Source: Acaryochloris marina S15
GTDB lineage: Bacteria; Cyanobacteriota; Cyanobacteriia; Thermosynechococcales; Thermosynechococcaceae
Assembly: GCF_018336915.1 (NCBI RefSeq)
Contig: NZ_CP064923.1
Span: 510,001 to 542,000, forward strand
Direction of reading: 5' to 3'
DNA length: 32,000 nt
Positions 1 through 31,514 of the stretch are shown here, piece after piece. Position 1 is the stretch's first letter, and each line of letters starts with the position of its first letter. The notes under the pieces were generated by a model. The model was given only the letters and a program-made list of their open reading frames with translations. It had not been told where the DNA came from and ran no database searches. Made by a program: the position numbers and the translations under genes.

Positions 1-1009
1 GTTTCGCCTCAAGGATGGTCTGAATCTGGGGATTCCCATCGATACTGCTATTGAGGTCTTTGGCTTGGAGCAGCTCGCTCCCACGGTGGCTCAAGCGCCT
101 GAATCGGAGTCTCAACCCCCTGAGCCTGAGCCGCCAGCGGAAGAGACTCCCTCGCCTGAATCCGATTTGGCGAGCTTCACCTTTGAGGTTCTGGGGGTGA
201 ATGACAAGGGCCAGGTGCGTAAACGGACCCAACAGTCGGCCCAATACTATCGCCAACCCCTGGTAGAAGGAGTGGACTTGGAGATGGTGTCTATTCCAGA
301 GGGACAGTTCACGATGGGCTCCCCTGTGACCGAAACCCATCGAGAGAAAAACGAAGATCCCAAACATGTGGTGGATGTCCCTGGGTTTTTTATGGGGAAA
401 TATCCCATTACCCAAGCCCAATGGCAGGCCATTATGGGGGACAATCCCTCTAAATTTCAGGGGGCCAATCATCCCGTCGATCAGGTCAGCTGGTTTTTAG
501 CAGAAGAGTTTTGCCAAAAGCTATCGGTGGCCACGGGGCAGGATTACCGTTTGCCCAGCGAAGCGGAATGGGAATATGCAGCGCGAGCAGGCACCCACAC
601 GCCATTTCACTTTGGTAAGACTATCACCACAGATCTGGCCAATTACGACGGCAATTACACCTATGACAAAGGGCCGAAAGGAACCTTCAGACGAAAAACA
701 CTGGGAGTTGACCAATTCACGGGCAATGGGTTTGGCCTCTTCAATATGCATGGTCAAGTTTGGGAATGGTGTTTAGACCATTGGCATGATCATTACAAGG
801 GGGCTCCCACTGATGGCACCGCCTGGATTGAGAAAGGAGACCCGAAACTGCAGCGAGTACGACGAGGGGGATCTTGGTATGATAGCCCCCATGCTTGCCG
901 GTCTGCCTTTCGCTACCGTTCCCATCCTTATACCTATAAAAGTTCGTTTGGGTTACGGGTTGTCTTGCCAATCCTAAAGCCCTCGGTTGAGATAATTGCG
1001 GTGCCGTAG
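1..1009 (+). CDS. 3' portion of a trypsin-like serine protease / FGE-sulfatase (SUMF1-type) fusion protein; 5' end lies outside the window
   Basis: Frame 2 is open from base 2 (FRLKDGLNLGIPIDTAIEVFG). This aligns with VRIKDGLNLGIPINTAITAFG near the end of the protease domain of the 4904..6526 product, so the ATG at 65 is internal. A P/E-rich linker follows, then FGE-sulfatase motifs GKYPITQAQW, RLPSEAEWEYAARAG, MHGQVWEWCLD, RRGGSWY, GLRVV. Confidence 0.8.
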   Translation, partial: FRLKDGLNLGIPIDTAIEVFGLEQLAPTVAQAPESESQPPEPEPPAEETPSPESDLASFTFEVLGVNDKGQVRKRTQQSAQYYRQPLVEGVDLEMVSIPEGQFTMGSPVTETHREKNEDPKHVVDVPGFFMGKYPITQAQWQAIMGDNPSKFQGANHPVDQVSWFLAEEFCQKLSVATGQDYRLPSEAEWEYAARAGTHTPFHFGKTITTDLANYDGNYTYDKGPKGTFRRKTLGVDQFTGNGFGLFNMHGQVWEWCLDHWHDHYKGAPTDGTAWIEKGDPKLQRVRRGGSWYDSPHACRSAFRYRSHPYTYKSSFGLRVVLPILKPSVEIIAVP

Positions 1010-1363
1010 ATTCCCTAGGGAAGTAGAAAATATTGAGGGACGTATCCATGAGTTGTTCAGGGTCAACTCTTCCAGTCTCGGTATTAGACCTCTTGCAATA
1101 TGCGTTTCATGATGGGCTACCAACTCAATTTATGCCGCCCGTGATCTGACTTGGAGTACTAGGCCTCTACCATATCGGTAATTGAATTATGTAATAGGTC
1201 TAATGACATAACGATATGACTTGGGGTAGTGATCTAACGAAATCTTCAGTAGCGACAATGAGTCGTTTGCTGCAAAACATTGTTTGCTAACTCTTTCACT
1301 GGGGGCTGATCAACTGTATATCTATCTTGAGAAGCAGGTTGACGAACATTGCACCTCCTGTCT

Positions 1364-4363
1364 TCAGGGGTGTTCTGGCGCTGTAGCCAGTGACTTAAGA
1401 AGCTTCTGCAAACCAGCTTCGCGTTTTGTTTCTGGAAACAGATCGATGTGCTGAATCCGCTCCAATGTTCGCGTGTCGTCAATCTCAATGGGTGGAACAT
1501 CGCATTTCGCTAACCGCACGGGAAAGATGTAGGAATGTCCAGGGCCGAACTGTCTGAAGGTGGTAATTGCGTCGCGTATTTCGGGATAGACACCAGAACG
1601 ATAACGCTCCTTGGTCAAGTCCGGCGACAGGCAGACCACTACGGCATAGGCATTTTTCATCGCCTCGCGTATTGCTTCCTTCCAGTCACGACCGCCAAGA
1701 ATGAACTCATCCCACCACACTAATTCGCCTGCATTTCCCAGATCTTCAACCAGCCGCGAAACGTCGTCCTTGTTGTCGTGGCAATAAGATATAAAAACGT
1801 GCTTCTCTCCCATTTTTTTTCTCTCCTCTCGTCTTTGCCCTTGGCGTTTATTCTGATAGCGAATTGAATCGATGCCGTTCAGCAATTCTGTTACCGAATA
1901 GCATTTGTCCGCTCCAACCGGGAAGTACTTACTTTCACCATGTTCCCCCAGCTTCAAAAGGTGATCATACGGCACCGTAACGTCTGGTCTGTCTGGCAAT
2001 GGCACTTCCTCTGTGGGGGCCAGCGTCGGAATTGTCGAATGAACGTAACGGAAAGCGTCACGTACAACAGCAAGGCTTTCTTTCCGGTTCTTGATCGCTC
2101 CTTGCACCGCTATAAATACCTTGTTTTTCTCTATGTCTCCGCGAACAAGAACCGTGTTGCCATCAATCTTCAGTACTGTCCCGCTTCGCCAACTGAGATT
2201 TTGGTTCACATGCTGGTGCATCCGCACAATGAAGCGACAGATCACACCGGCTGGTAGGACAGTATAAGCATATTGGAAGTTCAATGATTCTTGAGGCTTC
2301 CATTGGAGCGTCTTAGGCTCTTTTGGGTCGAGCAGTTCCGGGATCAGCCAGTGTGTCTGCTTGCGATGATCAATTTGATAGGCCAACTCAAACTGCATCA
2401 TCTTGCGCACGATGAAATCATGACGGTTTTTGGGATATCCTTCAAGCGTGTTCAGCACTGCTGAAAGCTGCTGACAACTTAGGAGACCGTCTCGTTTCTC
2501 TTTCAGGTTCTTGTCATTGATGATTGCATAAACACCATCAGTTACCCATTCAGGATTGAGGACGTAGGGATCGTTCTGACCATAGGGATCGTCGGGGTCC
2601 TGGAAGTTAAGGACTACGCCTAGATCGTGCAGAAAACGGATCAAGCGATCTTGGTTTTCAGACTTCTTGACATTATAGCGACTGGAAATCTTACGATAGT
2701 CTTCAATTGGGATGTAGTTTCTCTCAGCCGCTGCCTGCTCTAGTTCGGCCATAACATCAAAGTAGCTCTGCGGCAGTTCATTAAAGACGTGCGGCAGGCG
2801 ACGGATATGCTTGCCGATCTCGCGGCGAAGTTTCGCGATTCCTTGGCCTGTGGAACAACTTGTCTGGATGAAACCTTGGATGTTCGGGTAGTCTTGTATC
2901 AGGCGCGTTTCATTCAGTTCGTGGGGATGCTGATCGCTTTTATTTATCACCACTAGCACGGGCGACTCACCCCCGTAGCTCTGGATGATCTTTAGCCAGT
3001 AATGGATGTTACTCTCCTTTTCGCCAGCGCGTGCGTCGATCACGAGGAGGTAGAGACTGCGGCGCGTGAGGAAAAACTGGTGCGTGGCGTGCATAATTTC
3101 CTGGCCGCCAAAATCCCAGATATGGACGTTGATCCGCTCGAACTTACCGCCAGTGCCTTTCTTGCCTTGGACGTCCCAGTTATCGATATTGATGCCTTCG
3201 GTCGGCAGCTCGCCAAGATTGCACGGCTTGTTTTGGATAAGGTAGTGAACCAGCGAAGTCTTGCCTACGCCACCCTGACCGACCAATAACATCTTCGCTT
3301 CGTTTAGCCGTCGCGCAGGTTCAGTCCGCGATTGCAAGTACCAGGCCAGGATTGACTTTGGATCGGCTGGAGCTTTCTCTCCGCTAAATGATATTGTAGA
3401 TTCAATCAAGGTCGGGCCAAGGACCTCTGGCGGAATGCCCAACGCCTCGTTGTCTTGGAGGAAGAGGCCTTCCAGTAACTCACAGTTGTCCAGCGACTCA
3501 GGCAGCGCCGTCAATTGGTTTGCTTCAAGATCAAGCAAACGTAGTTTTTTAAGCTGGTTGATTGATTTTGGTAATGTCTTCAGCTTATTAGTATTATCAC
3601 CCCAATATGTTTGACGATTCTGTTCCTTGACAAACTTCCCTAAGTAGAGATTCTGTAGATTCGAGAGAGAGCCTAGCCACCCCGGTAGCACTTCAAGAGA
3701 TGTCGTAGCAGCTCCAAGCGTGATCAACAGAGTGAGCCGTGCCAAAGATGATGGCAACTTTTTGAGTCGGTTACTTGAAATTTCTAATTCAGTCAGTTGT
3801 GTAAGCTGGCCCAGCGACTCCGGCAGCGCCGTCAGTTGGTTCCTGCTGAGGTTCAGCGATTGCAACTGGGAGAGCTGGCCCAGCGACTCCGGCAGCGCCG
3901 TCAGTTGGTTGTTGGTGAGGTCCAGCGTCTGCAACTGGGAGAGCCGACCCAACGACTCCGGCAGCGCCGTCAGTTGGTTGCTGCTGAGGTTCAGCGATTG
4001 CAACTGGGAGAGCTGGCCCAGCGACTCCGGCAGCGCCGTCAGTTGGTTGTTGCTGAGGTTCAGCGATTGCAACTGGGAGAGCCGACCCAACGACTCCGGC
4101 AGCGCCGTCAGTTGGTTGTTGGTGAGGTCCAGCGTCTGCAACTGGGAGAGCCGACCCAACGACTCCGGCAGCGCCGTCAGTTGGTTGCTGCGGAGGTTCA
4201 GCGATTGCAACTGGGAGAGCTGGCCCAGCGACTCTGGCAGCTCAGTAAGCTTTTCAGAGTTATCAGCATTCCAATTACATCTCAGATCGAGCTTGGTCGC
4301 TCCGGTATGCCGCGCTTCGGCGATTTTACGTTCGGCCTTTTGATATGGCGTTTCTGTTGCCAT
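1364..4363 (-). CDS. LRR - Roc GTPase - COR - TIR multidomain protein (ROCO family with C-terminal TIR effector)
   Basis: About eleven 23-aa LRRs (LTALPESLGxLSQLQxLxLxxNQ, aa 39-300). Roc G-motifs GQGGVGKTS (K368), DFGGQ (D417), NKSD (N474). COR-like region aa ~525-835 (LPQSYFDV, FLHDLGVVLNF). TIR-like domain aa ~853-980 (KHVFISYCHDNKDDV, WWDEFILGGRDW, SGVYPEIRDAI). Confidence 0.9.
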   Translation of the reverse strand: MATETPYQKAERKIAEARHTGATKLDLRCNWNADNSEKLTELPESLGQLSQLQSLNLRSNQLTALPESLGRLSQLQTLDLTNNQLTALPESLGRLSQLQSLNLSNNQLTALPESLGQLSQLQSLNLSSNQLTALPESLGRLSQLQTLDLTNNQLTALPESLGQLSQLQSLNLSRNQLTALPESLGQLTQLTELEISSNRLKKLPSSLARLTLLITLGAATTSLEVLPGWLGSLSNLQNLYLGKFVKEQNRQTYWGDNTNKLKTLPKSINQLKKLRLLDLEANQLTALPESLDNCELLEGLFLQDNEALGIPPEVLGPTLIESTISFSGEKAPADPKSILAWYLQSRTEPARRLNEAKMLLVGQGGVGKTSLVHYLIQNKPCNLGELPTEGINIDNWDVQGKKGTGGKFERINVHIWDFGGQEIMHATHQFFLTRRSLYLLVIDARAGEKESNIHYWLKIIQSYGGESPVLVVINKSDQHPHELNETRLIQDYPNIQGFIQTSCSTGQGIAKLRREIGKHIRRLPHVFNELPQSYFDVMAELEQAAAERNYIPIEDYRKISSRYNVKKSENQDRLIRFLHDLGVVLNFQDPDDPYGQNDPYVLNPEWVTDGVYAIINDKNLKEKRDGLLSCQQLSAVLNTLEGYPKNRHDFIVRKMMQFELAYQIDHRKQTHWLIPELLDPKEPKTLQWKPQESLNFQYAYTVLPAGVICRFIVRMHQHVNQNLSWRSGTVLKIDGNTVLVRGDIEKNKVFIAVQGAIKNRKESLAVVRDAFRYVHSTIPTLAPTEEVPLPDRPDVTVPYDHLLKLGEHGESKYFPVGADKCYSVTELLNGIDSIRYQNKRQGQRREERKKMGEKHVFISYCHDNKDDVSRLVEDLGNAGELVWWDEFILGGRDWKEAIREAMKNAYAVVVCLSPDLTKERYRSGVYPEIRDAITTFRQFGPGHSYIFPVRLAKCDVPPIEIDDTRTLERIQHIDLFPETKREAGLQKLLKSLATAPEHP
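3767..4249 (-). repeat. Seven near-identical 69-bp tandem coding repeats (one LRR each)
   Basis: The plus-strand motif cca(g/a)cgactccggcagcgccgtcagttggtt recurs at 3811, 3880, 3949, 4018, 4087, 4156 and 4225, an exact 69-bp (23-codon) period. Confidence 0.9.
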
Positions 4364-4439
4364 TGTCAGTCTTGCTTTAATATTTTTCCAGTTATACCTC
4401 GAAAAATGATGATTATCGAAAACTTAAAGCCTGATCTCT

Positions 4440-4521
4440 AAGGAAATGTCTGAGCGGTCTGCCAACCCGGCTTAAACAATAAGGAAATGTCTGAGCAGAC
4501 TGCCAACCCGGCTTGAACGAT
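4440..4521. repeat. Two tandem copies of a 41-bp intergenic direct repeat
   Basis: aaggaaatgtctgagcggtctgccaacccggcttaaacaat (4440..4480) is followed directly by aaggaaatgtctgagcagactgccaacccggcttgaacgat (4481..4521). The copies differ at a few positions only. Confidence 0.85.
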
Positions 4522-4903
4522 TCGGTCGAGGCAGAGACCTGAGTCTTTCCAGTTTATAGTTGCTGCCTTGACCGCAGTGTTGGCCATTGGTCCAAATCAT
4601 GGCTAGACGGTTTATGGTTCAACTCAGTGCAGGTTAAGTCACCACACTCAATAGCCATGCCGCTGCCAAGCAAGCGATCCGTTGTACATGATTCCAGCGA
4701 TCCCATTGAATTAAGAGAGCGACGCCATAGGGCTAAGCCTTGGGTGCACTTCGGATCGACCTGAAGCCACGGCGACTAAAGTCGCTCGCCGACAGGATTA
4801 CTATCAGCCAACCAGCCCGGATAGCCTTCTGAACCCGAGACATTCCTAAATTGAGCGGATACATTAGGAATAAGGGTTTTGCAGAGTATTGATATAGGTT
4901 GGA

Positions 4904-6526
4904 ATGGGCATTAAGCGACGTCAGTTTTTGTGGTTCGGGGGGACTGCTGTTCTTAGTTTGGCCTCTTCCCCATGGTCTTTAGCCAAGTCGGTGCGGGATA
5001 TTCGCCAAATTGCCCGCCGCATTACCGTTCGCATTATGACTCAAGGCCCCTCTGGTTCCGGGGTGTTGATCAAGCGGAATGACAATATCTACACCGTGCT
5101 AACGGCGGCCCATGTGATCAAAAACTCTAACCGGGGCGAGGAAGCCTATGTGGAAACCTATGACGGTGAAACCCATCTCCTCAACACTCAATTGATGCAG
5201 GTGGATGCCAAAGCGGATATTGCGATCGCAACCTTCACTACCAACAACAACTATCGCGTCACAGACATCGGCAAGTTTAAAAACCTCGGTATTTTGGATG
5301 ATATTTATGTGGGGGGCTATCCTCTAGCCGATCAGGCCATTTCCGTCTCCACCATTACCCTCACCCGTGGAGAGGTGGCCTCCATTGGTGAATTTGAGGA
5401 TGGCTATGGATTTTCCTACACCGCCGTCACCAAGGCAGGCATGAGTGGTGGCCCCGTATTGGATCGAGAAGGTCGTCTGATTGGCATTCATGGACGGGCA
5501 GCGGGGCGACGGCTCCAGGAGGTGCGGATTAAGGATGGCCTGAATTTGGGGATACCGATCAATACTGCGATCACAGCATTTGGCCTGGGTAATAAGTACA
5601 GGCCCCTCACTGCGGAGCAACCTGAAAACCCTGAACAACCTCCTTCTGAACCCACGGAAAAAGAGACCACGGAGGAGCCACCCGAACAGAAGACCCTGCC
5701 CGGACTGTCCCGGTTTGCCTTTGAAGTGGTTGGCGTCAATGCAACAGGCCAGATCCAAAAGCGAAGCCGTCAGTCTGCCCAGTATTATCGCCAAGATCTG
5801 AAAGAAGGACAGTCCCTGGATATGGTCTATATCCCTGGGGGACGGTTTAGCATGGGCTCTCCGGCGGCGGAAGCCAATCGCCAAAAAAGCGAAGGTCCCC
5901 AACATCAGGTGATAGTGCCCACCTTTTTTATGGGCAAATACCCCATTACCCAAGCCCAGTGGCAAGCGGTGATGGGTGAGAATCCATCGAAGTTTCAGGG
6001 GGCGAATCGTCCCGTTGAGCGAGTGAGTTGGGAAGCCGCCACGGAATTTTGCCAGAAACTTTCGGAACTCACGGGGCAGGAATATCGCTTACCCAGCGAG
6101 GCCGAATGGGAATTTGCCGCCCGCGCCGGGACGAGTTCTCCGTTTTGCGTCGGTGCAACCTTAACCACAGAGATAGCCAACTACGACGGCAACTATACCT
6201 ATGGTCGCGGCCCTCGTGGCACCTTTAGAAAGGCCACCACTCCTGTAGGCCAGTTTGCCCCTAATACATTGGGCCTCTACGACATGCATGGTCAAGTCTG
6301 GGAATGGTGCCAAGATCATTGGCATGACACCTATAAAGGAGCACCCACGAATGGATCGGCTTGGGTGAAGCAAGATGATCTGCGATCTCACCGGGTTCGA
6401 CGCGGGGGATCTTGGTACGATGGCCCTCATGCCTGCCGGTCAGCGTTTCGCTATCGCTCGTTGCCCAGCAACTTCCAGAACTCCTATGGCCTGAGAGTGG
6501 TGTGCCAAGACTTAAAGGATATTTAG
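4904..6526 (+). CDS. Exported trypsin-like serine protease fused to an FGE-sulfatase (SUMF1-type) domain
   Basis: Tat-like signal MGIKRRQFLWFGGTAVLSLASSPWSLA. Chymotrypsin-fold triad contexts TAAHV (His), ADIAIA (Asp), GMSGGPV (Ser). P/E-rich linker (PENPEQPPSEPTEKETTEEPPEQ). FGE-domain motifs GKYPITQAQW, RLPSEAEWEFAARAG, MHGQVWEWCQD, RRGGSWY, GLRVV. Confidence 0.85.
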   Translation: MGIKRRQFLWFGGTAVLSLASSPWSLAKSVRDIRQIARRITVRIMTQGPSGSGVLIKRNDNIYTVLTAAHVIKNSNRGEEAYVETYDGETHLLNTQLMQVDAKADIAIATFTTNNNYRVTDIGKFKNLGILDDIYVGGYPLADQAISVSTITLTRGEVASIGEFEDGYGFSYTAVTKAGMSGGPVLDREGRLIGIHGRAAGRRLQEVRIKDGLNLGIPINTAITAFGLGNKYRPLTAEQPENPEQPPSEPTEKETTEEPPEQKTLPGLSRFAFEVVGVNATGQIQKRSRQSAQYYRQDLKEGQSLDMVYIPGGRFSMGSPAAEANRQKSEGPQHQVIVPTFFMGKYPITQAQWQAVMGENPSKFQGANRPVERVSWEAATEFCQKLSELTGQEYRLPSEAEWEFAARAGTSSPFCVGATLTTEIANYDGNYTYGRGPRGTFRKATTPVGQFAPNTLGLYDMHGQVWEWCQDHWHDTYKGAPTNGSAWVKQDDLRSHRVRRGGSWYDGPHACRSAFRYRSLPSNFQNSYGLRVVCQDLKDI

Positions 6527-6545
6527 GGGCCGATTTGAGACCCAG

Positions 6546-9500
6546 TTAACCGACTAATTCCGGTGTCTTCTGGTCGATAAATCCGGCTAGGGTATCTAGT
6601 AATTCCTGCTCGTTAAACGGTTTAGAGAAATAGGCTGACGCCCCTAAGTTCATGGCGACTTTGCGGTGTTTCTCATGACTACGGGAGGTGAGCATGACAA
6701 TGGGTAAATCTTCAAATCGGCGCTGGCCTTTGACTTCTTCGAGGACACCGTAGCCATCCAGCCTCGGCATTTCAATGTCACAGACGACTGCCTGCACCGT
6801 TAAGCCACTTTCCAGCTTATCAACGGCTTCTTGACCATCCCTGGCCTGCTCAACCAGATAGCCTGCTTTTTCCAGGGTCATGGCTAGGAAGCGACGAACA
6901 TTAACCGAGTCATCCACCACGAGGACCGTATTGCCTTGGCTGGCTTGGGACACTGGTTCCACCGATGCTGCGATTAGACCGGATTGTTCGCGCTCTAGGC
7001 ACCATTTGAGCACAGGCAATGGATCAATAATCGGGACGACCCGGCCATCCCCTAATACCGTAGAGCTAACGAATCCAGGCGGCATGGGTAAGGGGCTGTC
7101 GATGTTGCGAATCGTGACTTCTTGTTCCCCCCAGAATCGCTCAATTTCCAGGCCGCCCACAGTGGATTCTTCGCCAACCACTAGAACCGTGGGTTGATTA
7201 ATAACGGGTGTTCCCAACATTTCGGAGAATTTGCGGGTTTGGCTAAAGGCCCAGTGCCTCGCCAAATTCATCACTGGAATGGACTGATCCTGCCAGGTCA
7301 ATTTTTGAGTCTGTTCAATCGTGTGGAGTTGGTCTGCCTCTATGCGCAGCAGTTCGCGGATGTTGTCTACGGGCACTGCAAAAATTAAGCCAGAATGCTC
7401 CAAGAGCATGACTCGCAGAACCGAAAGGGTATAGGGGACCGTAATTGTAAAGGTGGTGCCGACACTGCGTTCGGTGTTTACATAAATATCGCCTCGGATG
7501 TCCCGGAGGTTGGTTCGCACCACATCCATACCCACGCCTCGACCTGAAATCTCAGTCACTTGGTCAGCAGTACTAAAGCCGGGTTCAAAGATACAGTCCA
7601 GTAAGTCCTGATCCGACATCTGCAAGACTTCTGATTCGGTGAGTCCCATGGATTGCAGGCGATTGCGCACCTTATCCAACCGGATGCCAGCCCCATCATC
7701 GCTAATGGTGATGACGGTTTGAGCTCCTCGGTTCCGAGCTTTAATCGTAATCTTGCCTTCGGGTGCTTTGCCAATGGACAGCCGACGCTCTTGGCTGCCA
7801 ATCCCATGGTCAAAGGCATTCCGCAACAGGTGGTTGAGGGCATCCCCTAGGGATTCAAGCACGGACCGATCAATCAGGGTGGCATCCCCTTCCATGACCA
7901 AGTTCACGGGCTTATTGAACTGAACGCTCAAATCCCGAATCACCCGTGGGAATCGCTTGACGATCTCTCTAAAGGGCACCATCTGGGTGCGGGTGACATT
8001 GGTCTGCAACGAGCGGGTGGTTTGGTTAATGTCTCGAACGGCCTGACCCATGTCTTGCAGGGTCAAGTTAATATCTGAGCCCACCTCTTGCAGTTGGACA
8101 ATCGTTTCAATTTGGTCTTGGGCAATCAGGTGTAAGTCGGTATATTGGTCCATTTCTAGGGCATCAAATTGCCCTGGCCTGGGTTCGGCGATTTGTTCGG
8201 GCTGAGCGGGGGCAGCTGCCTCTGCCGGGACAATTCCTTCCAGGGAGGCTCGGTCATACCATTGCTGCAATTGGGTATTGGATGCTTCTAGTTGTTGAAT
8301 CCGCTGTCGAATCAGTTGGGTATAGGTTTGCAACTGCTCAAAGCGCAGATTGACGGTATTCCGTTCCAGAATCAGTTTCCCAAACAGGGCGTTAAATTGC
8401 TCCAGTTGTTCCACCGGAACCCGCACGGTTTTACCGCTTAACGGCTTTGCTGCTGGTGCAGCGGCAGGCTGGTTGGCCGTGGCTTGTTCCAGAATTTGAG
8501 CGGCACTCTCAAGGGTTAATGGCAGTTCAGAAGGGATAGGACTCTCTGCAGCCGGATTAATGGTGGGAACAGGATTCTCAGGACTTGTTGCAACCACTGG
8601 TTCGGGTAGGGAAACCCCAAGATCCGCGTCAATGGCAAATGCGTCCTGTAGATCCGCAAGCTCCATCGAGTCTTGCAAATTGATGAGATCATCTGCATTT
8701 AATAGGTCATCTGCAGGGATCTCCGCTGGGATGTCAAAGTCAGTTGTATTGAATAAGTCATCTGTAGGGATCTCCGCCGGGATGTCAAAGTCAGCAGCAG
8801 GTAACTCAATGGATAAGGCATTGGCTAAGTTGGCGATGGCCGGATCATTGAGGGAAAGCTCGTCCAGATTGACTGTTTCTAGCGGTTCGGGGCTAGGCAG
8901 ATCCGTGGCTAAAGCTTCGGCTAGGTCAGCTACGGCGGGATCATCTGCAAAAGAGATGGCCTCTGCAGGTAGCTCTGGGGGCATGTCAATCGCGCCAAAG
9001 TCTGCTTGCAGAGCCGACAAGTCCACTAAGTCTAGGGCATTTTCAAAGTCAATTTCAGGACTGGAAGCGATATTGGGCGTAAAGTCCGGAAGCTGGTGGG
9101 GCAGCTTCTCAAAGCTGCGTCGCAGCACCAAGGCATGGGACCGTCGCCAGGTTTTGAGGGCGGCAGTGGATAGTTCTGGAATTTGCTCGGGGATAACTTG
9201 GGGGGCTAGTTCCTGGACGGATTGGCAGAGCTGAATAAAAGGCTCTAAATTCGCCATATGACCAAAAGCCACCAGTTCTTCTGCCGTCATGGCCAGCTCT
9301 GCAGCGAGCTGAGGGGCAGGCAAGGTCTCAAAATAGCCTTCAATCCGATCGAGAACGGCTTCCACGCCATCCTCAAACATCAGTAGTGCCGGATCCGTTT
9401 CATCCTCGTCGCCGTTGAGCAGCGCCGTCTCGTCCTCGTCCGTGACATCCCCTAAATGAACTTGCAGTTGGTCAAAGACGGGATAAATTTGTTCTGCTAG

Positions 9501-9848
9501 CCAGGCTGCATCAATTTCGGCTCCTTGCCGATAGCGATCACCCACCTGTCGCAAGCAATCTAAACCCTGCAATAGCAAGGTCTCTACCTCCGTTTCGATG
9601 GTTTTGGAGGCGTGATGCACCCGCAAGATTTTGAAGAAGTCTTCTAGACGGTGGGCCACTTTACTCAGATCCATCAGCCCCATCATGGCCGCTCCCCCCT
9701 TAACGGTGTGGGAGGCTCTGAGGGCTTCGTCCAGTTGCTCTGGTTCAGCAACGTTTGCTGCTAGACCCAGCAAAGCCCGTTCAATCCTGTCGTAACAATC
9801 TTCTGCTTCTTCGAGAAATTTGAACTGGACTTGTTGTTCTTTATCCAT
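6546..9848 (-). CDS. cheA: CheA-type hybrid histidine kinase (Hpt, acidic linker, HATPase, CheW-like, receiver); PilL/HmpE/TaxAY-like
   Basis: N-terminal Hpt (ALRASHTVKGGAAMMG), a ~300-aa acidic low-complexity linker, kinase core (ISDDGAGI, GRGVGMDVV), a CheW-like domain and a C-terminal receiver (VLVVDDS, CDIEMPRLDG, FSKP). It is the last gene of a PatA-CheY-CheW-MCP-CheA operon. Confidence 0.85.
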   Translation of the reverse strand: MDKEQQVQFKFLEEAEDCYDRIERALLGLAANVAEPEQLDEALRASHTVKGGAAMMGLMDLSKVAHRLEDFFKILRVHHASKTIETEVETLLLQGLDCLRQVGDRYRQGAEIDAAWLAEQIYPVFDQLQVHLGDVTDEDETALLNGDEDETDPALLMFEDGVEAVLDRIEGYFETLPAPQLAAELAMTAEELVAFGHMANLEPFIQLCQSVQELAPQVIPEQIPELSTAALKTWRRSHALVLRRSFEKLPHQLPDFTPNIASSPEIDFENALDLVDLSALQADFGAIDMPPELPAEAISFADDPAVADLAEALATDLPSPEPLETVNLDELSLNDPAIANLANALSIELPAADFDIPAEIPTDDLFNTTDFDIPAEIPADDLLNADDLINLQDSMELADLQDAFAIDADLGVSLPEPVVATSPENPVPTINPAAESPIPSELPLTLESAAQILEQATANQPAAAPAAKPLSGKTVRVPVEQLEQFNALFGKLILERNTVNLRFEQLQTYTQLIRQRIQQLEASNTQLQQWYDRASLEGIVPAEAAAPAQPEQIAEPRPGQFDALEMDQYTDLHLIAQDQIETIVQLQEVGSDINLTLQDMGQAVRDINQTTRSLQTNVTRTQMVPFREIVKRFPRVIRDLSVQFNKPVNLVMEGDATLIDRSVLESLGDALNHLLRNAFDHGIGSQERRLSIGKAPEGKITIKARNRGAQTVITISDDGAGIRLDKVRNRLQSMGLTESEVLQMSDQDLLDCIFEPGFSTADQVTEISGRGVGMDVVRTNLRDIRGDIYVNTERSVGTTFTITVPYTLSVLRVMLLEHSGLIFAVPVDNIRELLRIEADQLHTIEQTQKLTWQDQSIPVMNLARHWAFSQTRKFSEMLGTPVINQPTVLVVGEESTVGGLEIERFWGEQEVTIRNIDSPLPMPPGFVSSTVLGDGRVVPIIDPLPVLKWCLEREQSGLIAASVEPVSQASQGNTVLVVDDSVNVRRFLAMTLEKAGYLVEQARDGQEAVDKLESGLTVQAVVCDIEMPRLDGYGVLEEVKGQRRFEDLPIVMLTSRSHEKHRKVAMNLGASAYFSKPFNEQELLDTLAGFIDQKTPELVG
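8706..8794 (-). repeat. 51-bp (17-codon) tandem duplication inside the CheA acidic linker
   Basis: gtcatctgcagggatctccgctgggatgtcaaagtcag (8706..8743) and gtcatctgtagggatctccgccgggatgtcaaagtcag (8757..8794). They encode DFDIPAEIPTDDL / DFDIPAEIPADDL. Confidence 0.85.
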
Positions 9849-9944
9849 GGTGCTCAGGTGATATTGAGTCGCTAATATCGATGGGGTTCATCCGGCTGCT
9901 AATCTCAAGTCAGGGGGACCGATAGAAGAACGATCCTAAATTCG

Positions 9945-12365
9945 TTAGCTAGATTCTTCGACTTTAAACTGGGCCACAGCGGCTTCCAGCTTCTGGGCAA
10001 CGGCAGCCGTGTCTTGCATGGACTGGGCCATTTTGTTAGAAGATTCCGACCGCTGTTCGGACAATTCTGCCATCTGAGACATCAAAGTGGTCACTGCTTT
10101 TGAGGTTTCAGTCTGGGTCTCAGTTGCGTCAGAAATGGACCGCATGAGGTCGTTGATCTCTTGGGACCGAGTCAGTACTTGGGTCAGCTTCTCTTTGGTC
10201 GTTTCCACCAGGCGAGTACTATCCACCACCTGGGTGGTCCCTACTTCCATCGCCTCCGTCACTTCCTTGGTCTCGGCTTGAATTCCAGCCACAATTTGAG
10301 CGATTTCTTTCGTCGCCGCAGTGGACTGTTCCGCTAGGGCACCCACCTGTTCTGCAACCACGGTGAAACCTTGACCCTGTTCACCGGCACGACTGGCCTC
10401 AACACTGGCGTTAATGGCGAGTAGGTTGGTTTTGAGAGCGATTTCTTCAATCAAGGACACCACCTGAGAAATCTTTTGGGAGGATTCACCCAGTCGCTTA
10501 ATTTTCTTGGAGGTCTCACCGACCGTATTTCGCAGGCCGAGGATACTGTCTACCGTCTGATCCATGGCATTACTGCCTTCTTGGACCGTCGTGTAGGCTT
10601 CATCGGAAATCACAGCGGCTCGACCGGCGTTGCTGGCTACATCCTCAATGGAGACGGACATTTTCTCAATCGAATCGAGGGTGGTTCGGGCTTGCTCAGT
10701 TTCTTGGACGGCTTGCTCCGCTAGGGTCTGAATCTCGGTTCCGTTTGCACCGAGGGAGGAACTCACCTGTACAGAGGACTCTTTTACCTGACCCGCAATC
10801 TCGTTGAGGTTGTCGATAATGGCGTTGAACAAGTCAGCAACGGTACTCATTTCCATCGAGTTTAAGCTGGCGCGTACGGTTAAGTCGCCATCTACCGCTT
10901 CTCCCACTTCGTCGAGGAGCTGGTAGATTTCCATTTCTAGTTTGTCGCGGGATTCTTTTTGTTCTTGAGCGGCTTGTTCCGTTTTGTTTAAGAGGGTCTG
11001 GACCTCGGACACTAGGTTGTTGAAGGTCCGGGCTAGGATTCGGGTTTCGCGGGTTCCTTCAATATCAGCTCGGACATTTAAGTTTCCTTCTGCCGCTTCG
11101 TCGGCGGTGCCCGTTAGCTTAGTTAGAGGATTGGACAAGCTAGTGGAGAGCCAGTAGATCAAGGCGGTGACAATACCCGCCATGAGTAAGCCTGTTAAGG
11201 CAAATACGATTAACTGCTCTCGGGCTGCTGCCGCTTCTTCAGCGGTTTCAACGGATGCGATCGCAACCAGTTTCGTGAACGGAACAATCGATAGGGTAAA
11301 GAATCGGTCTTTGTAAGTAAAGGAAGCAGTTAGTAGCTTAAATTTACCCGCATCTTTTTCTTTGATTTCTACCTCTTTAATCCCAGGAATATTCTCAATC
11401 TGAGCTTTAGTGGCATTCAGATCACCCGACTCAGCTGCCAAGTAATCTTCGATCAGCTTGGCGGTAGCTAGAACGTCCTCGCCTCCGGTCACCTCTTGGT
11501 TGGTCGTATCACTACCCGTTTTGGTGATGGTATTCACCACTGGCCTGGTTTCCAGCTTCGGGTCAACCAGCTGCACAATCTCAGACTCCGTTAGGTTGGG
11601 AGTAATCAGTGTACTAATAGCCTCATCCAGTGCCTTTGTGGGGAGGCCAATTTTGGTCACCCCAATAAAATTGCCTGAGTCATCCGTAATCTGCTTGGAC
11701 AGGGCAAGCACAAAGGTCTGAGAAGAGTCGTCAAATTCAGGCTCTTCAATAAATTGCCCCTTTTCTTTGGCCTGCTGCCACCAGTTTTCATCGTTCTGAA
11801 CAAAGTCAGAGGTGGGAGCACTATAGGCAACATTAAAGCCATTTTTATCTGTCACAAAGACTTCGGCCAGGTCAACGTTCTTAACGACCCGCTGCAGGTA
11901 TGCATTCAGTTTGGCATTGGGCTTTAGCAGCTTGGTGCTAGCAAACTGAGCTTCGACTGCCTCAATCGGCTTTTGAGTCAGTCCCTGGGTTTCCGCCTGT
12001 TGGGCTCCAGCCTTGACCGCCTCTAGCAACAAGGGGTCACTACCGATCAGATCCGGGAACTTCAGGGTGTCTAGCAAGAAGAGGGTGCTGGCCTCACTGG
12101 TCAGGAGACTGACTTCCTCTAACTGCAGCAACGCTTTTGCTTTCAATTCTGCCTCTGTTCGGGTGTAACCAATCGCACTAGCGACCGCCAGGGGCACCAA
12201 GGCAACGGGCAGAACTGTGGTCAACAATCGTTGGCGTAGGGTTGCTGCGGGCTTGGCTGTTTCCATCTCAACAGAAGTGGCCTCGTTAGTACCATTCAGT
12301 TGGTCTTCTATGCTGTTGCCGTTGGTAGAAGCGTCAGCAGGGGAAGTGTCCTTTTGGGTAGTCAT
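9945..12365 (-). CDS. Methyl-accepting chemotaxis protein (TM, ~330-aa periplasmic sensor, TM, HAMP, MCP signalling domain); PilJ/HmpD-like
   Basis: Conserved MCP hairpin [41 protein letters not shown]. Two hydrophobic segments ([21 protein letters not shown]; [21 protein letters not shown]) flank the sensor. No GAF/phytochrome-like region was seen. I prefer the ATG at 12365 (MTTQKD) to the GTG at 12413 used by the ORF track. Confidence 0.85.
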
Positions 12366-12448
12366 GGTCCTGGTTAAATCGGTAAAAGAATAAGTACTCT
12401 CAACTGCCAGCACGAGGTTGACAGATTAAACATCAAACGCGGCTCACA

Positions 12449-13015
12449 CTATGCCGAGTACAATGCCGGCGATTTTGCTAAGGCTGGAGGATAAAAGATA
12501 TACATGAGCTGATCTCCCTGTTGGCAAGCACCTGTAATGTAGGGAGCTAGGTTTGCCGGACAAAAGGTGGGATCCGTTTGTAATTGTTCTTCACTTAGAC
12601 GGGTGACCCCTTGAATTTGGGGAACCGCTAACCCCAACAGGGCATCACCATCCCCCGCCGCCTGATACTCAGAGCGAGGCACCCGCACCACAATCACACG
12701 GTATTGCCGTTGAGTGCCCGTCACATCTGGATAGCCCAATATCTGAGGCAGGTTGACCACACAGAACACCTGCTCCCGGGAATTGATTAGACCTAGGACG
12801 GGTCTGGCCATATTCGGCATAGCCGTAATCTGTTCTGCTGCCACAATCAGGGATTCATGAACATGCTCCATCGAGAGTAAGGCACCCATGCCCTTAGTCA
12901 ATAAAAACCGTAAATAGGGTTGTCCCGATAGTTGGGTAGCCTGAAATAGCTGGGGTAGAAGCTCTTGCAGTCTCGCTAGAGATGTTGTCGAAGCAGTGGG
13001 TTTTTGAGTCGTCAT
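12449..13015 (-). CDS. cheW: CheW-like coupling protein (PilI/HmpC-like)
   Basis: 188 aa with a single CheW-like domain pattern, located between the CheY and MCP genes. Its ATG (13015) directly abuts the stop of the upstream CheY gene (13016), which suggests translational coupling. Confidence 0.75.
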   Translation of the reverse strand: MTTQKPTASTTSLARLQELLPQLFQATQLSGQPYLRFLLTKGMGALLSMEHVHESLIVAAEQITAMPNMARPVLGLINSREQVFCVVNLPQILGYPDVTGTQRQYRVIVVRVPRSEYQAAGDGDALLGLAVPQIQGVTRLSEEQLQTDPTFCPANLAPYITGACQQGDQLMYIFYPPALAKSPALYSA

Positions 13016-13381
13016 TTATTTCATGGCCGCTCTCAGGGCACTTACCAGTTCTTGCTTGGTGCAGGGTTTGGTGACATAGGCTTCAATGCCCTGCTTGGCT
13101 GCCCACATCCGGTCCACATCCCGATCTTTAGCAGTACAGGCTACGACTGGGATATCAGCGGTTTCAGGATTCTTGCGCAGCTTACGGGCCAGGTCCAAGC
13201 CTCCCATCTCTGGCATCATCCAGTCGGTGACAATAGCATCTGGCTTGTTCTGGTTGACCTTCTCTAAGGCTTCTGCGCCATTCGTGGCCGTGACGATGGT
13301 ATAACCTTCTTCTGTGAGGTATTGACAGATTAAGTCGAGTTCAGATTGCAGGTCATCAACGACTAAGATTTTGCTGCTCAT
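13016..13381 (-). CDS. cheY: Single-domain CheY-like response regulator (PilH/HmpB-like)
   Basis: 121 aa. Receiver signature KILVVDD, phospho-acceptor context IVTDWMMPEMGG, VVACTAK, YVTKP. Confidence 0.9.
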   Translation of the reverse strand: MSSKILVVDDLQSELDLICQYLTEEGYTIVTATNGAEALEKVNQNKPDAIVTDWMMPEMGGLDLARKLRKNPETADIPVVACTAKDRDVDRMWAAKQGIEAYVTKPCTKQELVSALRAAMK

Positions 13382-13501
13382 GGTGTGTCCTTGAATGGCT
13401 AGGTAAGCGTAAACGAGAAAGTAATCTGGAGAAACTGGAATCCATTCGGTACAGGAGGAATAGGCTACCTAAACCCGCAACATGGGGCAGTGCCGAGACC
13501 G

Positions 13502-14737
13502 CTAAGCTGGCGTAAATTGAGTCAGATACTTCTCTACCATGTCCATTAGCCCTTTCTGGGTAAAAGGTTTGGTGAAGTAATCTGTGGCACCTGCTAATTT
13601 GGCCCGAGCCTTGTCAATCAGTCCGGTATTGCCCGTCACCATAATGATCGGAGTCTCATCAAACACAGCACTGCTTCTCAGCAAGCTGCATAGGCGATAG
13701 CCATTGATCTTGGGCATGGTGATGTCTAACAAAATGAGATCGGGCTTAATCCGGAAGATCACAGAGGATGCCTGGATTGGATCGTCTACCGTTGTGACCT
13801 CGTAACGAGTGTTCCCCAAACATCGCTCAATCTCACTCAAGATCGTGGGACTATCATCAATGCAAACAATTTTGAAGGTTCTATTCGCGTCCTGGGCGGC
13901 TTGAGCCGCTTGGGCGACCGAGGGTATTTTGGGAATAGCCGGAACCGGAACCCGAGGTAATTGGTCAAAAGGCGGTTGTGGATTCCGCAGAAAAATCACC
14001 TGTTGCTCCACATAAGGACCAAAGAGTTGGGCGATATGTAGCTCGTCCTGTTTCAACAAAACGGATAGCTGACGGATACTAAACCCTCGACTCATCAACT
14101 GAGCGAGTTTGGTCAGGGCTTCTGGCGATAGCTTGCCACCCGCAACGGGCTTGCTAATGTGTTGGAAATCTAAAAGATAAGGGCGTTGATAGGGAGAACA
14201 AATATCCTTACAGCAACTTTGCCAGCTCTTCATTCGATGCTTGAGGAACCGGACTGTATCGACCAATTCCATCAGTGGGGTTGCCCCTAAGACCTGGGTC
14301 ACCCACTCTGGAGACGTGACGCCATTCTCCCAAACCGCTTTGGCTTGCCTGAGCCATAAAAAGGTTTCTAGGGCGTCTTGGGTAATATCTTCAATAATCT
14401 GTCGAGCTTGGATCTCATTCAACATCTGTTGCTCTTGCAGCCACAACATTGAACGCTGAATCAGTCCTTGAGCTTTGATTGCTGTACTGTCCCCATCTAT
14501 CTTCTGCTGAGGAGGCATCTCTTTGAGGGCATTAAAGGCGGGCTCTAATCCTTGGCGGCACAGAAAGTAGCTCAGTTGGGCAAGGGTTTGGACGGAGCAA
14601 TCTACATACTGCAGCTCACCTTCCTTCAAGTAAATATGCCAAATAGATTTACCATTACTGGCTTTGAGAACACCACTAGCTTGAGAGCTTGATAACTCAG
14701 TAAGCAGCTGATACGGATCAAACTTTGTGGTTTCCAT
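13502..14737 (-). CDS. PatA-type response regulator (N-terminal PATAN-like domain plus C-terminal receiver); PilG/HmpA-like
   Basis: C-terminal receiver (KIVCIDDSPT, LILLDITMPKINGY, IIMVTG, YFTKP) preceded by a ~280-aa non-receiver N-terminal region. It is the first gene of the chemosensory operon, the arrangement known for cyanobacterial Tax/Pil/Hmp loci. Confidence 0.8.
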   Translation of the reverse strand: METTKFDPYQLLTELSSSQASGVLKASNGKSIWHIYLKEGELQYVDCSVQTLAQLSYFLCRQGLEPAFNALKEMPPQQKIDGDSTAIKAQGLIQRSMLWLQEQQMLNEIQARQIIEDITQDALETFLWLRQAKAVWENGVTSPEWVTQVLGATPLMELVDTVRFLKHRMKSWQSCCKDICSPYQRPYLLDFQHISKPVAGGKLSPEALTKLAQLMSRGFSIRQLSVLLKQDELHIAQLFGPYVEQQVIFLRNPQPPFDQLPRVPVPAIPKIPSVAQAAQAAQDANRTFKIVCIDDSPTILSEIERCLGNTRYEVTTVDDPIQASSVIFRIKPDLILLDITMPKINGYRLCSLLRSSAVFDETPIIMVTGNTGLIDKARAKLAGATDYFTKPFTQKGLMDMVEKYLTQFTPA

Positions 14738-31441: not shown

Positions 31442-31471
31442 AAGGGTTTGGTTGCAATAAGCCAAACCCTT
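31442..31471. terminator. Perfect 10-bp stem hairpin downstream of the HAD gene (possible terminator)
   Basis: aagggtttgg (31442..31451), 10-nt loop, ccaaaccctt (31462..31471). It lies 44 nt beyond the minus-strand stop at 31515. The U-tract is weak. Confidence 0.35.
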
Positions 31472-31514
31472 TAGCCGTTTTAGAGGTGTTTGTCATGCTC
31501 GAATAAAGCTTGAA

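What the first reader, a model, noticed from the sequence alone, without database searches (positions are those of the whole stretch)
1..6526. ROCO-TIR gene sits inverted between two diverged protease-FGE paralogs: insertion into a tandem pair, or a three-gene module
The genes at <1..1009 and 4904..6526 are same-strand paralogs. The window start aligns with the end of the protease domain of the second copy. Both then have a P/E-rich linker and an FGE-sulfatase domain, and by eye roughly two thirds of FGE-domain residues are identical (not computed). The only gene between them is the oppositely oriented ROCO-TIR gene, bracketed by 354 bp (1010..1363) and 540 bp (4364..4903) of DNA with no ORF of 60 aa or more. 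From memory and unverified here, comparative-genomic surveys of NTPase-centred conflict systems in multicellular bacteria flagged FGE-sulfatase-like domains and trypsin-like peptidases as recurrent partners. That would make a functional link plausible. Alternatively, the ROCO-TIR cassette simply landed between tandem duplicates.
Basis: inference. Interest (0 to 1): 0.65.

Follow-up and report, generated by a model that had tools for sequence, protein, structure and literature searches.

The report
Foreign ROCO-TIR gene inserted between paralogs
A single immune-type gene (LRR-GTPase-TIR), most similar to planctomycete genes, has been inserted in one Acaryochloris strain between two old neighbouring protease genes that are directly adjacent in five related genomes, so this is an ordinary strain-specific insertion and not a three-gene system.

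Summary
Window <1..1009 and 4904..6526 are same-strand trypsin-linker-FGE-like paralogs (64% identity over 331 aa, 69% in the FGE domain). The only gene between them is an inverted LRR-Roc-COR-TIR gene (1364..4363).

Of the two readings offered, the insertion is supported and the module is not.
- Five other Acaryochloris genomes have the two protease genes directly adjacent (about 115-135 bp apart). Two of them are 97.5-99% identical to the window in the DNA to the right of the insert.
- 102 ROCO loci elsewhere show one FGE and two weak trypsin matches in their flanks, and no protease-FGE fusion.
- The closest ROCO-TIR relatives (72-83% aa) lie in high-GC contigs. One of these was shown to be Pirellulales. 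Their surroundings are unrelated to this locus.
- The gene has the most atypical codon usage in the window.
- Against a near-identical strain, divergence is 5.4% over 4821..5338 and then almost zero. The upstream paralog is only about 84% identical. The insert therefore probably arrived on a divergent allele by homologous recombination.
- No transposase, tRNA or significant target duplication marks the insert.
- The protease pair looks like core, Tat-exported, non-catalytic-FGE proteins, so physical coupling to a cytoplasmic ROCO-TIR is unlikely.

LRR-Roc-COR-TIR is an already described architecture of a predicted conflict system. Interest is low.

The parts
1..1009 (+). 3' part of the upstream trypsin-linker-FGE-like paralog, cut by the window edge; FGE-like domain about 281..964. 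It is the ortholog of the upstream copies in other Acaryochloris genomes but is unusually diverged from its closest relatives.
   Evidence: Pfam FGE-sulfatase 9.3e-52. BLASTP to upstream copies: 86% Moss Beach, 84% P0018 (the L090 upstream copy), 82% MBIC11017, against about 64% to all downstream copies. Nucleotide identity to L090 is 84.5% and to Moss Beach 83-84%.
970..1363 (.). Left junction and left orphan flank of the insert. Alignment to the empty site is lost between about 970 and 1009. The intergenic stretch 1010..1363 is 42.7% GC and lies downstream of the ROCO-TIR stop codon.
   Evidence: No match in any fetched Acaryochloris or planctomycete-like locus or in the rest of the window. 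No Rfam family or tRNA. The C-terminal tail of the upstream gene differs from its orthologs from this point on.
1364..4363 (-). LRR-Roc-COR-A-COR-B-TIR gene (999 aa), the inserted cargo. Domains in window coordinates: TIR 1397..1798, COR-B 1874..2290, COR-A 2330..2773, Roc 2804..3295, LRR 3464..4294.
   Evidence: Pfam COR-A 2.3e-41, COR-B 1.2e-32, Roc 2.7e-28, TIR_2 6.2e-21, LRR_8 1.2e-33. GTPase motifs GQGGVGKT, DFGGQ, NKSD and SCS are present. PDB matches: Chlorobium Roco 6hlu 4e-85 and LRRK2 about 4e-50. The TIR aligns to the AbTIR NADase with a Glu aligned in 'YPEI' versus 'YEL'. Nucleotide similarity to L008 and L009 (about 78%) is confined to window 1362..4347.
3666..4286 (-). Array of 69-bp (23-aa) LRR units, 91-97% identical among the central copies.
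   Evidence: the repeat finder family D1, seven registers at 69-bp spacing. A short-read assembly of the same strain breaks inside this array (L001).
4364..4820 (.). Right orphan flank of the insert, upstream of the ROCO-TIR start codon. It contains a 41-bp unit repeated twice at 4439..4520.
   Evidence: No counterpart in the empty sites of L090, L002, L006 or L003, or in any other locus except the same strain's own contig L001. Repeat family D6. Weak similarity of 4762..4802 to the empty site, reached by 27 of 500 shuffles, so not significant.
4821..4903 (.). Native spacer retained on the right of the insert. It corresponds to the last 83 bp of the 124-132 bp spacer between the two paralogs in relatives.
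   Evidence: Aligned to L090 9670..9752, L002 9918..10000 and L006.
4904..6526 (+). Downstream trypsin-linker-FGE-like paralog (540 aa). Twin-arginine signal about 4904..4984, Trypsin_2 5054..5488, FGE-like domain 5819..6502.
   Evidence: Pfam. The 'KRRQFLWFGG...SLAK' N-terminus is conserved in all 18 Acaryochloris-type homologues, and TAAHV / DIAI / GMSGGP protease motifs are present. Best PDB match for the FGE-like domain is PvdO (about 1e-37). The first catalytic Cys of FGE is Asp here.
4821..5338 (.). Right end of the divergent allele tract. The last mismatch cluster ends at 5257..5338, which is the inferred right recombination crossover, inside the downstream gene.
   Evidence: 28 differences from L090 in 4821..5338 against 2 in 5339..8834 (Fisher p = 2e-23).

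Best explanation
The locus is a strain-specific insertion, not a module. The ancestral state in the Acaryochloris marina group is two directly adjacent, same-strand paralogous genes. Each encodes a Tat-exported trypsin/HtrA-like serine protease joined by a P/E-rich linker to a non-catalytic, PvdO-like FGE/C-type-lectin-fold domain. They lie next to a PatA-type CheA/MCP/CheW cluster. In the lineage of this window, about 3.8 kb (roughly 971..4820) lies at or next to the 3' end of the upstream gene. It carries one gene, LRR-Roc-COR-TIR, with about 350 and about 460 bp of orphan flanking DNA. Shown: the insert is absent from five relatives, the homologues sit in unrelated contexts, codon usage is foreign, the gene is nested among homologues of which one contig was shown to be Pirellulales and others have planctomycete-type features, and divergence against a near-identical strain changes abruptly. 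Inferred: the gene came ultimately from a planctomycete-like donor. It has resided in lower-GC genomes long enough to be partly ameliorated. It entered this strain as part of a divergent Acaryochloris allele by homologous recombination between the flanking protease genes, with the right crossover near 5260..5340 and the left crossover beyond the window. Inferred function: a self-contained cytoplasmic switch of the AP-GTPase (ROCO) conflict-system type. The LRR array would bind an invader-derived or stress ligand, the Roc-COR GTPase would change state, and the TIR domain would degrade NAD+ or make a nucleotide signal. This would work independently of the exported protease-FGE proteins beside it.
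For: Empty sites: the two protease-FGE genes are adjacent with no gene between them in Acaryochloris sp. 'Moss Beach' (L002), IP29b_bin.148 (L003 and L004), A. marina MBIC11017 and AP026075 (L006 and L005) and the SRR12447962 strain (L090). The downstream CheA/MCP/CheW/RR/PatA genes are conserved in all of them.
Boundaries: window 4821 onward aligns to the spacer and downstream gene, window 1..970 aligns to the upstream gene, and 971..4820 has no counterpart.
Recombination: the window is 99.15% identical to L090 to the right of the insert. Differences number 28 in 4821..5338 and 2 in the next 3.5 kb (p = 2e-23). The upstream copy is only 84.5% identical, whereas L090 and Moss Beach are 97.5% identical across both copies.
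Foreign origin: the best homologues of Roc-COR-TIR are 72-83% identical, and none is labelled Acaryochloris. A neighbour gene on L009 matches only Pirellulaceae/Pirellulales/Planctomycetia among named hits. L008 is sulfatase-rich and L009 carries DUF1570. The window protein is nested within this clade in a neighbour-joining tree. A. marina's own ROCO paralogs are 30-38% identical. Codon-usage distance to the other window genes is 0.190, the largest of 16 genes; other genes of 500 codons or more give 0.069-0.133. GC3 is 0.595, the highest in the window, against 0.75-0.83 in L008 and L009.
No co-occurrence: tblastn with the FGE and trypsin domains against 82 ROCO loci with flanks of up to 10 kb gave one FGE hit and two weak trypsin hits and no fusion. 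Twenty metagenome loci gave none. Two distant trypsin-FGE genes are single genes in housekeeping contexts.
Compartment: a twin-arginine signal is conserved in all 18 orthologs and paralogs, and the protease domain resembles periplasmic DegP/HtrA.
Architecture already described: PMC8195603 describes LRR + AP-GTPase + COR with C-terminal TIR.
Against: The left end of the divergent tract lies outside the window, so the recombination import is seen from one side only. The donor Acaryochloris allele has not been sampled: no database protein is closer than 86% to the upstream copy or 83% to the ROCO-TIR. Taxonomy of the closest ROCO-TIR contigs rests on one neighbour-gene search, a few source labels and gene content, and one relative (L094, 73%) sits in a 50% GC contig. 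The direction of transfer is therefore inferred, not proven. A closer genome-resident relative, even a cyanobacterial one, could therefore have been missed there. Trypsin and FGS domains are fused to AP-GTPases in other bacteria, so the neighbourhood is not biologically implausible as such. Export, NADase activity and any defence role are predictions only.
Confidence: 0.85

Rival explanations
1. Three-gene functional module. The two protease-FGE proteins and the ROCO-TIR protein work together, for example with the FGE-like lectin domains as sensors, the protease as processor and the TIR as effector. The arrangement would then be selected.
For: FGS domains and trypsin-like peptidases recur in NTPase-centred conflict systems and are even fused to AP-GTPase-COR proteins in some bacteria (PMC7159879 and PMC8195603). 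All three genes are intact.
Against: The triad is found in this strain only; five related genomes keep the pair without the ROCO-TIR. None of 102 ROCO loci has a protease-FGE neighbour. The ROCO-TIR is on the opposite strand, separated by 354 and 540 bp. The proteases carry conserved Tat signals, whereas the ROCO-TIR has no signal and starts directly with its LRR region. The FGE-like C-terminal region is invariant, unlike diversified sensor FGS domains. No MoxR, vWA, VMAP, EAD-type or reverse-transcriptase gene is in the window.
Confidence: 0.04
2. Ancestral triad with loss. The ROCO-TIR was present between the paralogs in the Acaryochloris ancestor and was deleted in the other genomes.
For: Defence-type genes are frequently lost. 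The right part of the native spacer is intact next to the insert.
Against: It needs at least three independent clean deletions restoring a similar 115-135 bp spacer in lineages that are 75-99% identical to the window. The gene has the most atypical codon usage in the window. It is nested among planctomycete-type homologues at 72-83% identity, while Acaryochloris ROCO paralogs are 30-38% identical. The closest relatives of the strain (99% and 98% identical to the right of the insert) lack it.
Confidence: 0.04
3. Non-random landing site without direct coupling. The spacer between the paralogs is a recombination or integration hotspot (a small variable islet), so accessory genes such as ROCO-TIR accumulate there and are exchanged by recombination in the repeated flanks.
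For: Tandem 64-70% identical flanks and conserved core genes on both sides give anchors for homologous exchange. The divergent-allele tract ends inside the downstream paralog. Moss Beach has an IS-family transposase and an extra gene just upstream of the pair.
Against: Only one of six genomes has anything in the spacer, so a hotspot is not demonstrated. No integrase, tRNA or repeat marks the site. This is a refinement of the best explanation more than a true alternative.
Confidence: 0.07

Closest known systems
Bacterial LRR-AP-GTPase(Roc)-COR proteins with variable C-terminal effector domains (predicted conflict systems; Kaur, Iyer, Burroughs, Aravind 2021, PMC8195603)
   Same: Same architecture: N-terminal LRR array, Roc/AP-GTPase, COR, and a C-terminal effector. 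TIR is one of the effector domains explicitly listed. It is a single-gene unit.
   Different: Nothing in the architecture differs. What is specific here is the genomic setting (inserted between two protease-FGE paralogs in one Acaryochloris strain) and the closest relatives, which are planctomycete-type. No experimental function is known for the class.
Chlorobium tepidum Roco (CtRoco; PDB 6hlu, 3dpu) and human LRRK2/LRRK1
   Same: LRR-Roc-COR core with strong sequence matches (4e-85 to 6hlu, about 4e-50 to LRRK2). G1, G3, G4 and G5 motifs are present.
   Different: The C-terminal output is a TIR domain, where LRRK2 has a kinase + WD40 and CtRoco has a short C-terminal extension.
Bacterial TIR NADase effectors (AbTIR; TIR effectors of Thoeris, CBASS and Avs-type systems)
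   Same: TIR_2 domain with a Glu aligned to the AbTIR catalytic region. PADLOC gives only generic TIR-domain hits.
   Different: Not part of any catalogued defence system in PADLOC. No ThsA, cyclase, SAVED or STAND partner is present. The upstream switch is a ROCO GTPase.
FGE-fold (FGS / C-type-lectin-fold) proteins: PvdO, DGR variable protein TvpA, and kinase-, caspase- or trypsin-FGS fusions of cyanobacteria
   Same: The FGE-sulfatase fold matches PvdO best (about 1e-37) and then TvpA. Many cyanobacterial homologues carry the same domain fused to kinase, caspase or TIR domains.
   Different: One of the two FGE catalytic cysteines is replaced by Asp, so it is not a formylglycine-generating enzyme. 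The C-terminal region is invariant, so it is not a DGR target. The protein has a Tat signal and an HtrA-like protease, which suggests an extracytoplasmic role and not an intracellular sensor role.

Membership tests
ROCO protein family | Roc (Ras-of-complex) GTPase domain with intact nucleotide-binding motifs | tested here: met
   Pfam Roc 2.7e-28. GQGGVGKT, DFGGQ, NKSD and SCS motifs found.
ROCO protein family | COR domain immediately C-terminal of Roc | tested here: met
   COR-A 2.3e-41 (aa 531-678) and COR-B 1.2e-32 (aa 692-830). Residues 344-840 align to the CtRoco structure 6hlu, 4e-85.
AP-GTPase conflict systems (PMC8195603) | N-terminal LRRs + AP-GTPase + COR + C-terminal effector from the variable set (TIR listed) | tested here: met
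   Domain order LRR, Roc, COR-A, COR-B, TIR_2. Description of the class.
AP-GTPase conflict systems (PMC8195603) | Rapidly evolving LRRs and several paralogs with different effectors in one genome | tested here: inconclusive
   Homologues range from about 800 to 1060 aa with the same Roc-COR-TIR core, and the LRR units are near-identical 69-bp repeats. This is consistent with repeat turnover. The paralog content of this genome could not be examined.
AP-GTPase conflict systems (PMC8195603) | Protective (anti-invader or cell-death) activity | not testable with these tools
PADLOC holds no ROCO system.
TIR NADase effectors | TIR fold with the catalytic glutamate | tested here: inconclusive
   TIR_2 6.2e-21. 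In the phmmer alignment to AbTIR-type chains, the query 'YPEI' Glu aligns to 'YEL'. That this is the catalytic Glu is from memory, and the alignment is gapped at that point.
Three-gene conflict module (protease-FGE + ROCO-TIR) | Conserved co-location of the components across genomes | tested here: not met
   Five Acaryochloris genomes have the pair without the ROCO-TIR. Among 102 ROCO loci there is one FGE hit, two weak trypsin hits and no protease-FGE fusion.
vWA-MoxR ternary / GAP1 GTPase systems (PMC7159879) | MoxR AAA+, vWA and VMAP (or GAP1) core genes in the neighbourhood | tested here: not met
   Pfam annotation of the main window ORFs and of the called genes in the Acaryochloris loci shows none.
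Formylglycine-generating enzyme (true FGE/SUMF1) | Pair of catalytic cysteines in the C-terminal 'C-x4-C' segment | tested here: not met
   Aligned to T. curvata FGE 6s07, 'ggsflChesyCn' corresponds to 'ggswyDgphaCr', so the first Cys is Asp. This is invariant in nine Acaryochloris copies. The best PDB match is the non-FGE PvdO.
DGR (diversity-generating retroelement) target proteins | Hypervariable region at the C-terminal end of the FGS/CLec domain, plus a template repeat and reverse transcriptase | tested here: not met
   'RVRRGGSWYDxPHACRSAFRYRS' is invariant across both paralog groups in four or five genomes. No reverse-transcriptase domain among the window ORFs scanned, and no template-like repeat other than the paralogy itself.
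Trypsin/HtrA-like serine proteases | His-Asp-Ser catalytic triad motifs | tested here: met
   TAAHV (aa 67), DIAI (aa 105) and GMSGGP (aa 179). Trypsin_2 5.6e-23. Matches to DegP/HtrA structures.
Tat-exported proteins | Twin-arginine motif (RRxFL), hydrophobic stretch, Ala-x-Ala-type cleavage site | tested here: inconclusive
   '(K/Q)RRQFL(W/L)FGG...S(L/A)AK' is conserved in all 18 homologues. No signal-peptide predictor was available and export is not shown.
Transposon / IS or integrative-element insertion | Transposase or integrase, terminal inverted repeats, target-site duplication, or a tRNA attachment site | tested here: not met
   No such gene or remnant in 971..4820. No convincing terminal inverted repeats. 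No tRNA. A possible 8-nt duplication is not significant (27 of 500 shuffles). No phage match, and the only plasmid matches are remote (27-42% identity).

The most novel reading that the evidence does not exclude
The landing site is not accidental. The acquired LRR-Roc-COR-TIR switch would be functionally wired to the two exported trypsin-FGS proteins, for example with envelope-level sensing or proteolysis feeding a cytoplasmic TIR response. That would make a newly assembled three-part system that echoes the AP-GTPase-trypsin and AP-GTPase-FGS fusions seen in other bacteria.
Probability: 0.04. Interest if true: 0.6.

Novelty: new member of a known kind. Interest (0 to 1): 0.25.

Why it matters
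It matters mainly as a clean negative result. A neighbourhood that looks like a conflict-system module (NTPase switch + TIR + peptidase + FGS lectin fold) turns out to be a one-strain insertion into an old tandem gene pair. It should not be used as evidence for a ROCO-TIR / protease-FGE system.

There is a modest positive side. It documents an LRR-ROCO-TIR gene whose nearest relatives lie in planctomycete-type, high-GC contigs, sitting in a chlorophyll-d cyanobacterium. The sharp divergence step suggests it moves between Acaryochloris strains by homologous recombination of flanking core genes, with no mobile-element machinery. That pattern is common for accessory defence genes. The Tat-exported trypsin-PvdO-like pair is an uncharacterised, conserved Acaryochloris feature that may deserve its own study.

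Tried and rejected
- Mobile-element signatures around the insert gave nothing. Repeats and inverted repeats, Rfam at permissive threshold, tRNA/tmRNA, small ORFs in both flanks, and blastn/tblastx of the flanks against all 110 loci and the rest of the window found nothing. The phage collection had no match, and plasmid ROCO genes were only 27-42% identical.
- A possible target-site duplication ('CTRAAGCC' at both ends) was tested against shuffles and is not significant (27 of 500).
- The promoter/terminator scan was not above shuffle expectation.
- The DGR hypothesis for the FGE-like domains was rejected. The C-terminal region is invariant and no reverse transcriptase is present.
- The idea that the FGE-like domain is a true FGE was rejected.
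- PADLOC gave only generic domain hits.
It was usable for co-occurrence but not for finding the donor.
- An exact-protein look-up of the window's own ROCO-TIR and of the A. thomasi homologue found nothing on record.
- Gene conversion between the paralogs as the cause of the diverged upstream copy was rejected. The upstream copy is no closer to the downstream copies (about 64%) than its orthologs are.

Full report

Yes. Frame 2 of the plus strand is open from the window edge to 1009. It encodes the last residues of a trypsin-like domain, a P/E-rich linker and an FGE-sulfatase domain (Pfam 9.3e-52). Window 4904..6526 encodes a complete 540-aa Trypsin_2 + FGE-sulfatase protein. The two align at 64% identity over 331 residues (E = 2e-157), and the window start corresponds to residue 208 of the second copy. 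Within the FGE domain 158/228 residues (69%) are identical.

The only gene between them is on the opposite strand (1364..4363, 999 aa). Its domain order is LRR, Roc, COR-A, COR-B, TIR_2. The 354-bp and 540-bp gaps hold no ORF of 60 aa or more lying wholly inside them.

**2. Organism and the orthologous locus**

The downstream protein is 99% identical to a protein of Acaryochloris sp. 'Moss Beach', with further homologues in A. marina MBIC11017, A. thomasi and Acaryochloris MAGs. I fetched the locus from five other genomes:
- Moss Beach (L002)
- IP29b_bin.148 (L003 and L004)
- A. marina MBIC11017 and the AP026075 strain (L006 and L005)
- the strain of run SRR12447962 (L090)

In every one the two protease-FGE genes are directly adjacent on the same strand, about 115-135 bp apart, with no gene between them. 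They are followed by the same convergent Hpt-CheA-CheW-receiver, MCP, CheW, receiver and PatA genes that occupy window 6546..14737.

The window's upstream copy groups with the upstream copies (86, 84 and 82% identity) and not with the downstream copies (about 64%). The duplication is therefore older than these lineages, and the pair is a stable, core feature.

**3. Boundaries and mode of arrival**

Against the empty sites, window 1..970 aligns to the upstream gene and window 4821 onward aligns to the last 83 bp of the native spacer and the downstream gene. Window 971..4820 (3.85 kb) has no counterpart.

The flanks of the ROCO-TIR ORF inside this segment (1010..1363 and 4364..4820) match nothing in any fetched locus or elsewhere in the window. 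There is no transposase or integrase remnant, no tRNA, no Rfam family and no convincing terminal repeat. A possible 8-nt duplication at the two ends is not significant.

The divergence profile is informative:
- To the right of the insert the window is 99.15% identical to L090 over 7.2 kb.
- The differences are not spread evenly: 28 fall in 4821..5338 and only 2 in the following 3.5 kb (Fisher p = 2e-23).
- To the left of the insert, the upstream copy is only 84.5% identical to L090 and 83-84% to Moss Beach.
- L090 and Moss Beach are 97.5% identical to each other across both copies.

So the window strain carries a divergent allele. It spans at least the 3' part of the upstream gene, the insert and the first roughly 400 bp of the downstream gene, and it ends abruptly near 5260..5340. 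The simplest reading (inference) is import by homologous recombination from an unsampled Acaryochloris lineage that already had the ROCO-TIR gene at this site. The left crossover lies outside the window.

**4. Where the ROCO-TIR gene comes from**

A search with the Roc-COR-TIR part found the window's own protein. The next best hits were 72-83% identical proteins from metagenome contigs, and none was labelled Acaryochloris or cyanobacterial. The few named hits are mostly Planctomycetota: Planctomycetaceae at 72%, and further out Phycisphaerae, Tautonia and Sedimentisphaerales.

- The two closest long contigs have planctomycete-type gene content. L008 has multiple sulfatases and a heparinase. 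L009 has DUF1570 and a secretin. Both are about 58% GC.
- The aminodeoxychorismate synthase gene next to the L009 homologue matches only Pirellulaceae, Pirellulales or Planctomycetia among named proteins.
- Seven of the eight metagenome loci at 72-87% identity are 58-66% GC. The exception is L094 at 50% GC.
- In a neighbour-joining tree the window protein is nested inside this clade.
- Nucleotide similarity to L008 and L009 (about 78%) begins and ends at the ORF.
- Acaryochloris' own ROCO paralogs, chromosomal and plasmid-borne, are only 30-38% identical.
- Within the window the gene has the most deviant codon usage: distance 0.190, against 0.069-0.133 for other genes of 500 codons or more. 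It also has the highest GC3 (0.595), which lies between the host and the planctomycete-type homologues at 0.75-0.83.

Together this indicates horizontal acquisition, probably from a Pirellulales-like source, followed by partial amelioration. The direction of transfer is inferred.

**5. Co-occurrence**

- tblastn with the FGE-like and trypsin domains against 82 ROCO loci with up to 10 kb of flank on each side gave one FGE hit (a Saprospiraceae MAG) and two weak trypsin hits. There was no trypsin-FGE fusion.
- Twenty metagenome loci gave nothing.
- Two distant trypsin-FGE genes (Oscillatoria princeps and a Logan contig) are single genes among housekeeping genes with no ROCO or TIR neighbour.

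**6. What the parts probably do**

The ROCO-TIR protein is intact.
- The GTPase motifs are present.
- Roc-COR matches the Chlorobium Roco and LRRK2 structures.
- The TIR aligns to AbTIR-type NADases with a Glu at the expected place.
- LRR + AP-GTPase + COR + a variable C-terminal effector, TIR included, is described as a predicted single-protein conflict system in PMC8195603.

I infer a ligand-gated GTPase switch controlling a TIR NADase. This is untested.

The protease-FGE proteins look like envelope proteins and not like intracellular sensors.
- They have a conserved twin-arginine signal.
- They have an intact His-Asp-Ser protease resembling periplasmic DegP/HtrA.
- Their FGE-fold domain matches PvdO best, and the first catalytic cysteine of true FGEs is Asp.
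- The C-terminal stretch, which is hypervariable in DGR targets, is invariant here.

Different compartments argue further against direct coupling (inference).

**7. Comparison with what is known, and verdict**

The systems described there are vWA-MoxR, GAP1 or STAND systems and domain fusions. None of their core genes is present in the window.

The ROCO-TIR gene is a new member of a known, computationally described class. The arrangement is a strain-specific insertion. Novelty: new member of a known kind. Interest: low (0.25). The points of some interest are the apparent cross-phylum origin of the gene and the clear recombination footprint. The residual chance that the neighbourhood is functional is about 4%.

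Noticed in passing
window 4439..4520: A 41-bp unit (TAAGGAAATGTCTGAGCGGTCTGCCAACCCGGCTTAAACAA) occurs twice in tandem at 90% identity. It lies in the orphan DNA upstream of the ROCO-TIR start codon and has no match in any fetched locus.
   Followed up: partly
window 3666..4286: The LRR region is an array of 69-bp units, 91-97% identical among the central copies. This suggests recent repeat expansion or homogenisation. A short-read assembly of the same strain (L001) breaks inside it.
   Followed up: partly
window 1..969 compared with L090 8618..9598 and L002 8889..9855: Divergence of the upstream paralog from its closest relatives is uneven. Identity is 87-94% in the middle (189..688) and only 73-78% over the last 300 bp next to the insert.
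   Followed up: partly
window 6546..14737: A conserved PatA-type chemotaxis-like cluster lies convergent with the protease pair in all Acaryochloris loci examined. It comprises an Hpt-CheA-CheW-receiver hybrid kinase, a dCache-HAMP MCP, CheW, a receiver and a PatA_N-receiver protein.
   Followed up: no
window 15072..16142; L002 20152..21223: The DUF2817 gene is intact here (356 aa). In Acaryochloris sp. 'Moss Beach' it is called as two overlapping ORFs (169 + 216 aa), probably a frameshifted pseudogene or a sequencing error.
   Followed up: no
L002 4196..6720: Moss Beach has a Transposase_mut gene and a PAF-AH-family gene just upstream of the protease-FGE pair, where MBIC11017 and L090 have DUF2237. 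This is another sign of local plasticity.
   Followed up: no
window 18733..22689: A 1318-aa ORF with long coiled-coil matches ends in a BRCT domain. It lies in a stretch with very strong A-over-T skew (AT skew up to 0.43).
   Followed up: no
window 14501..15000 and 31001..31500: Two GC troughs (0.376 and 0.382) stand against a window mean of about 0.50. Both fall mostly in stretches without a long ORF (14738..15071 and 31024..31514).
   Followed up: no
L094 (Ga0208771_1000676): A 73%-identical ROCO-TIR homologue sits in a 50% GC contig, unlike the other close relatives at 58-66% GC. It may come from a different host lineage, which bears on the direction of transfer.
   Followed up: no
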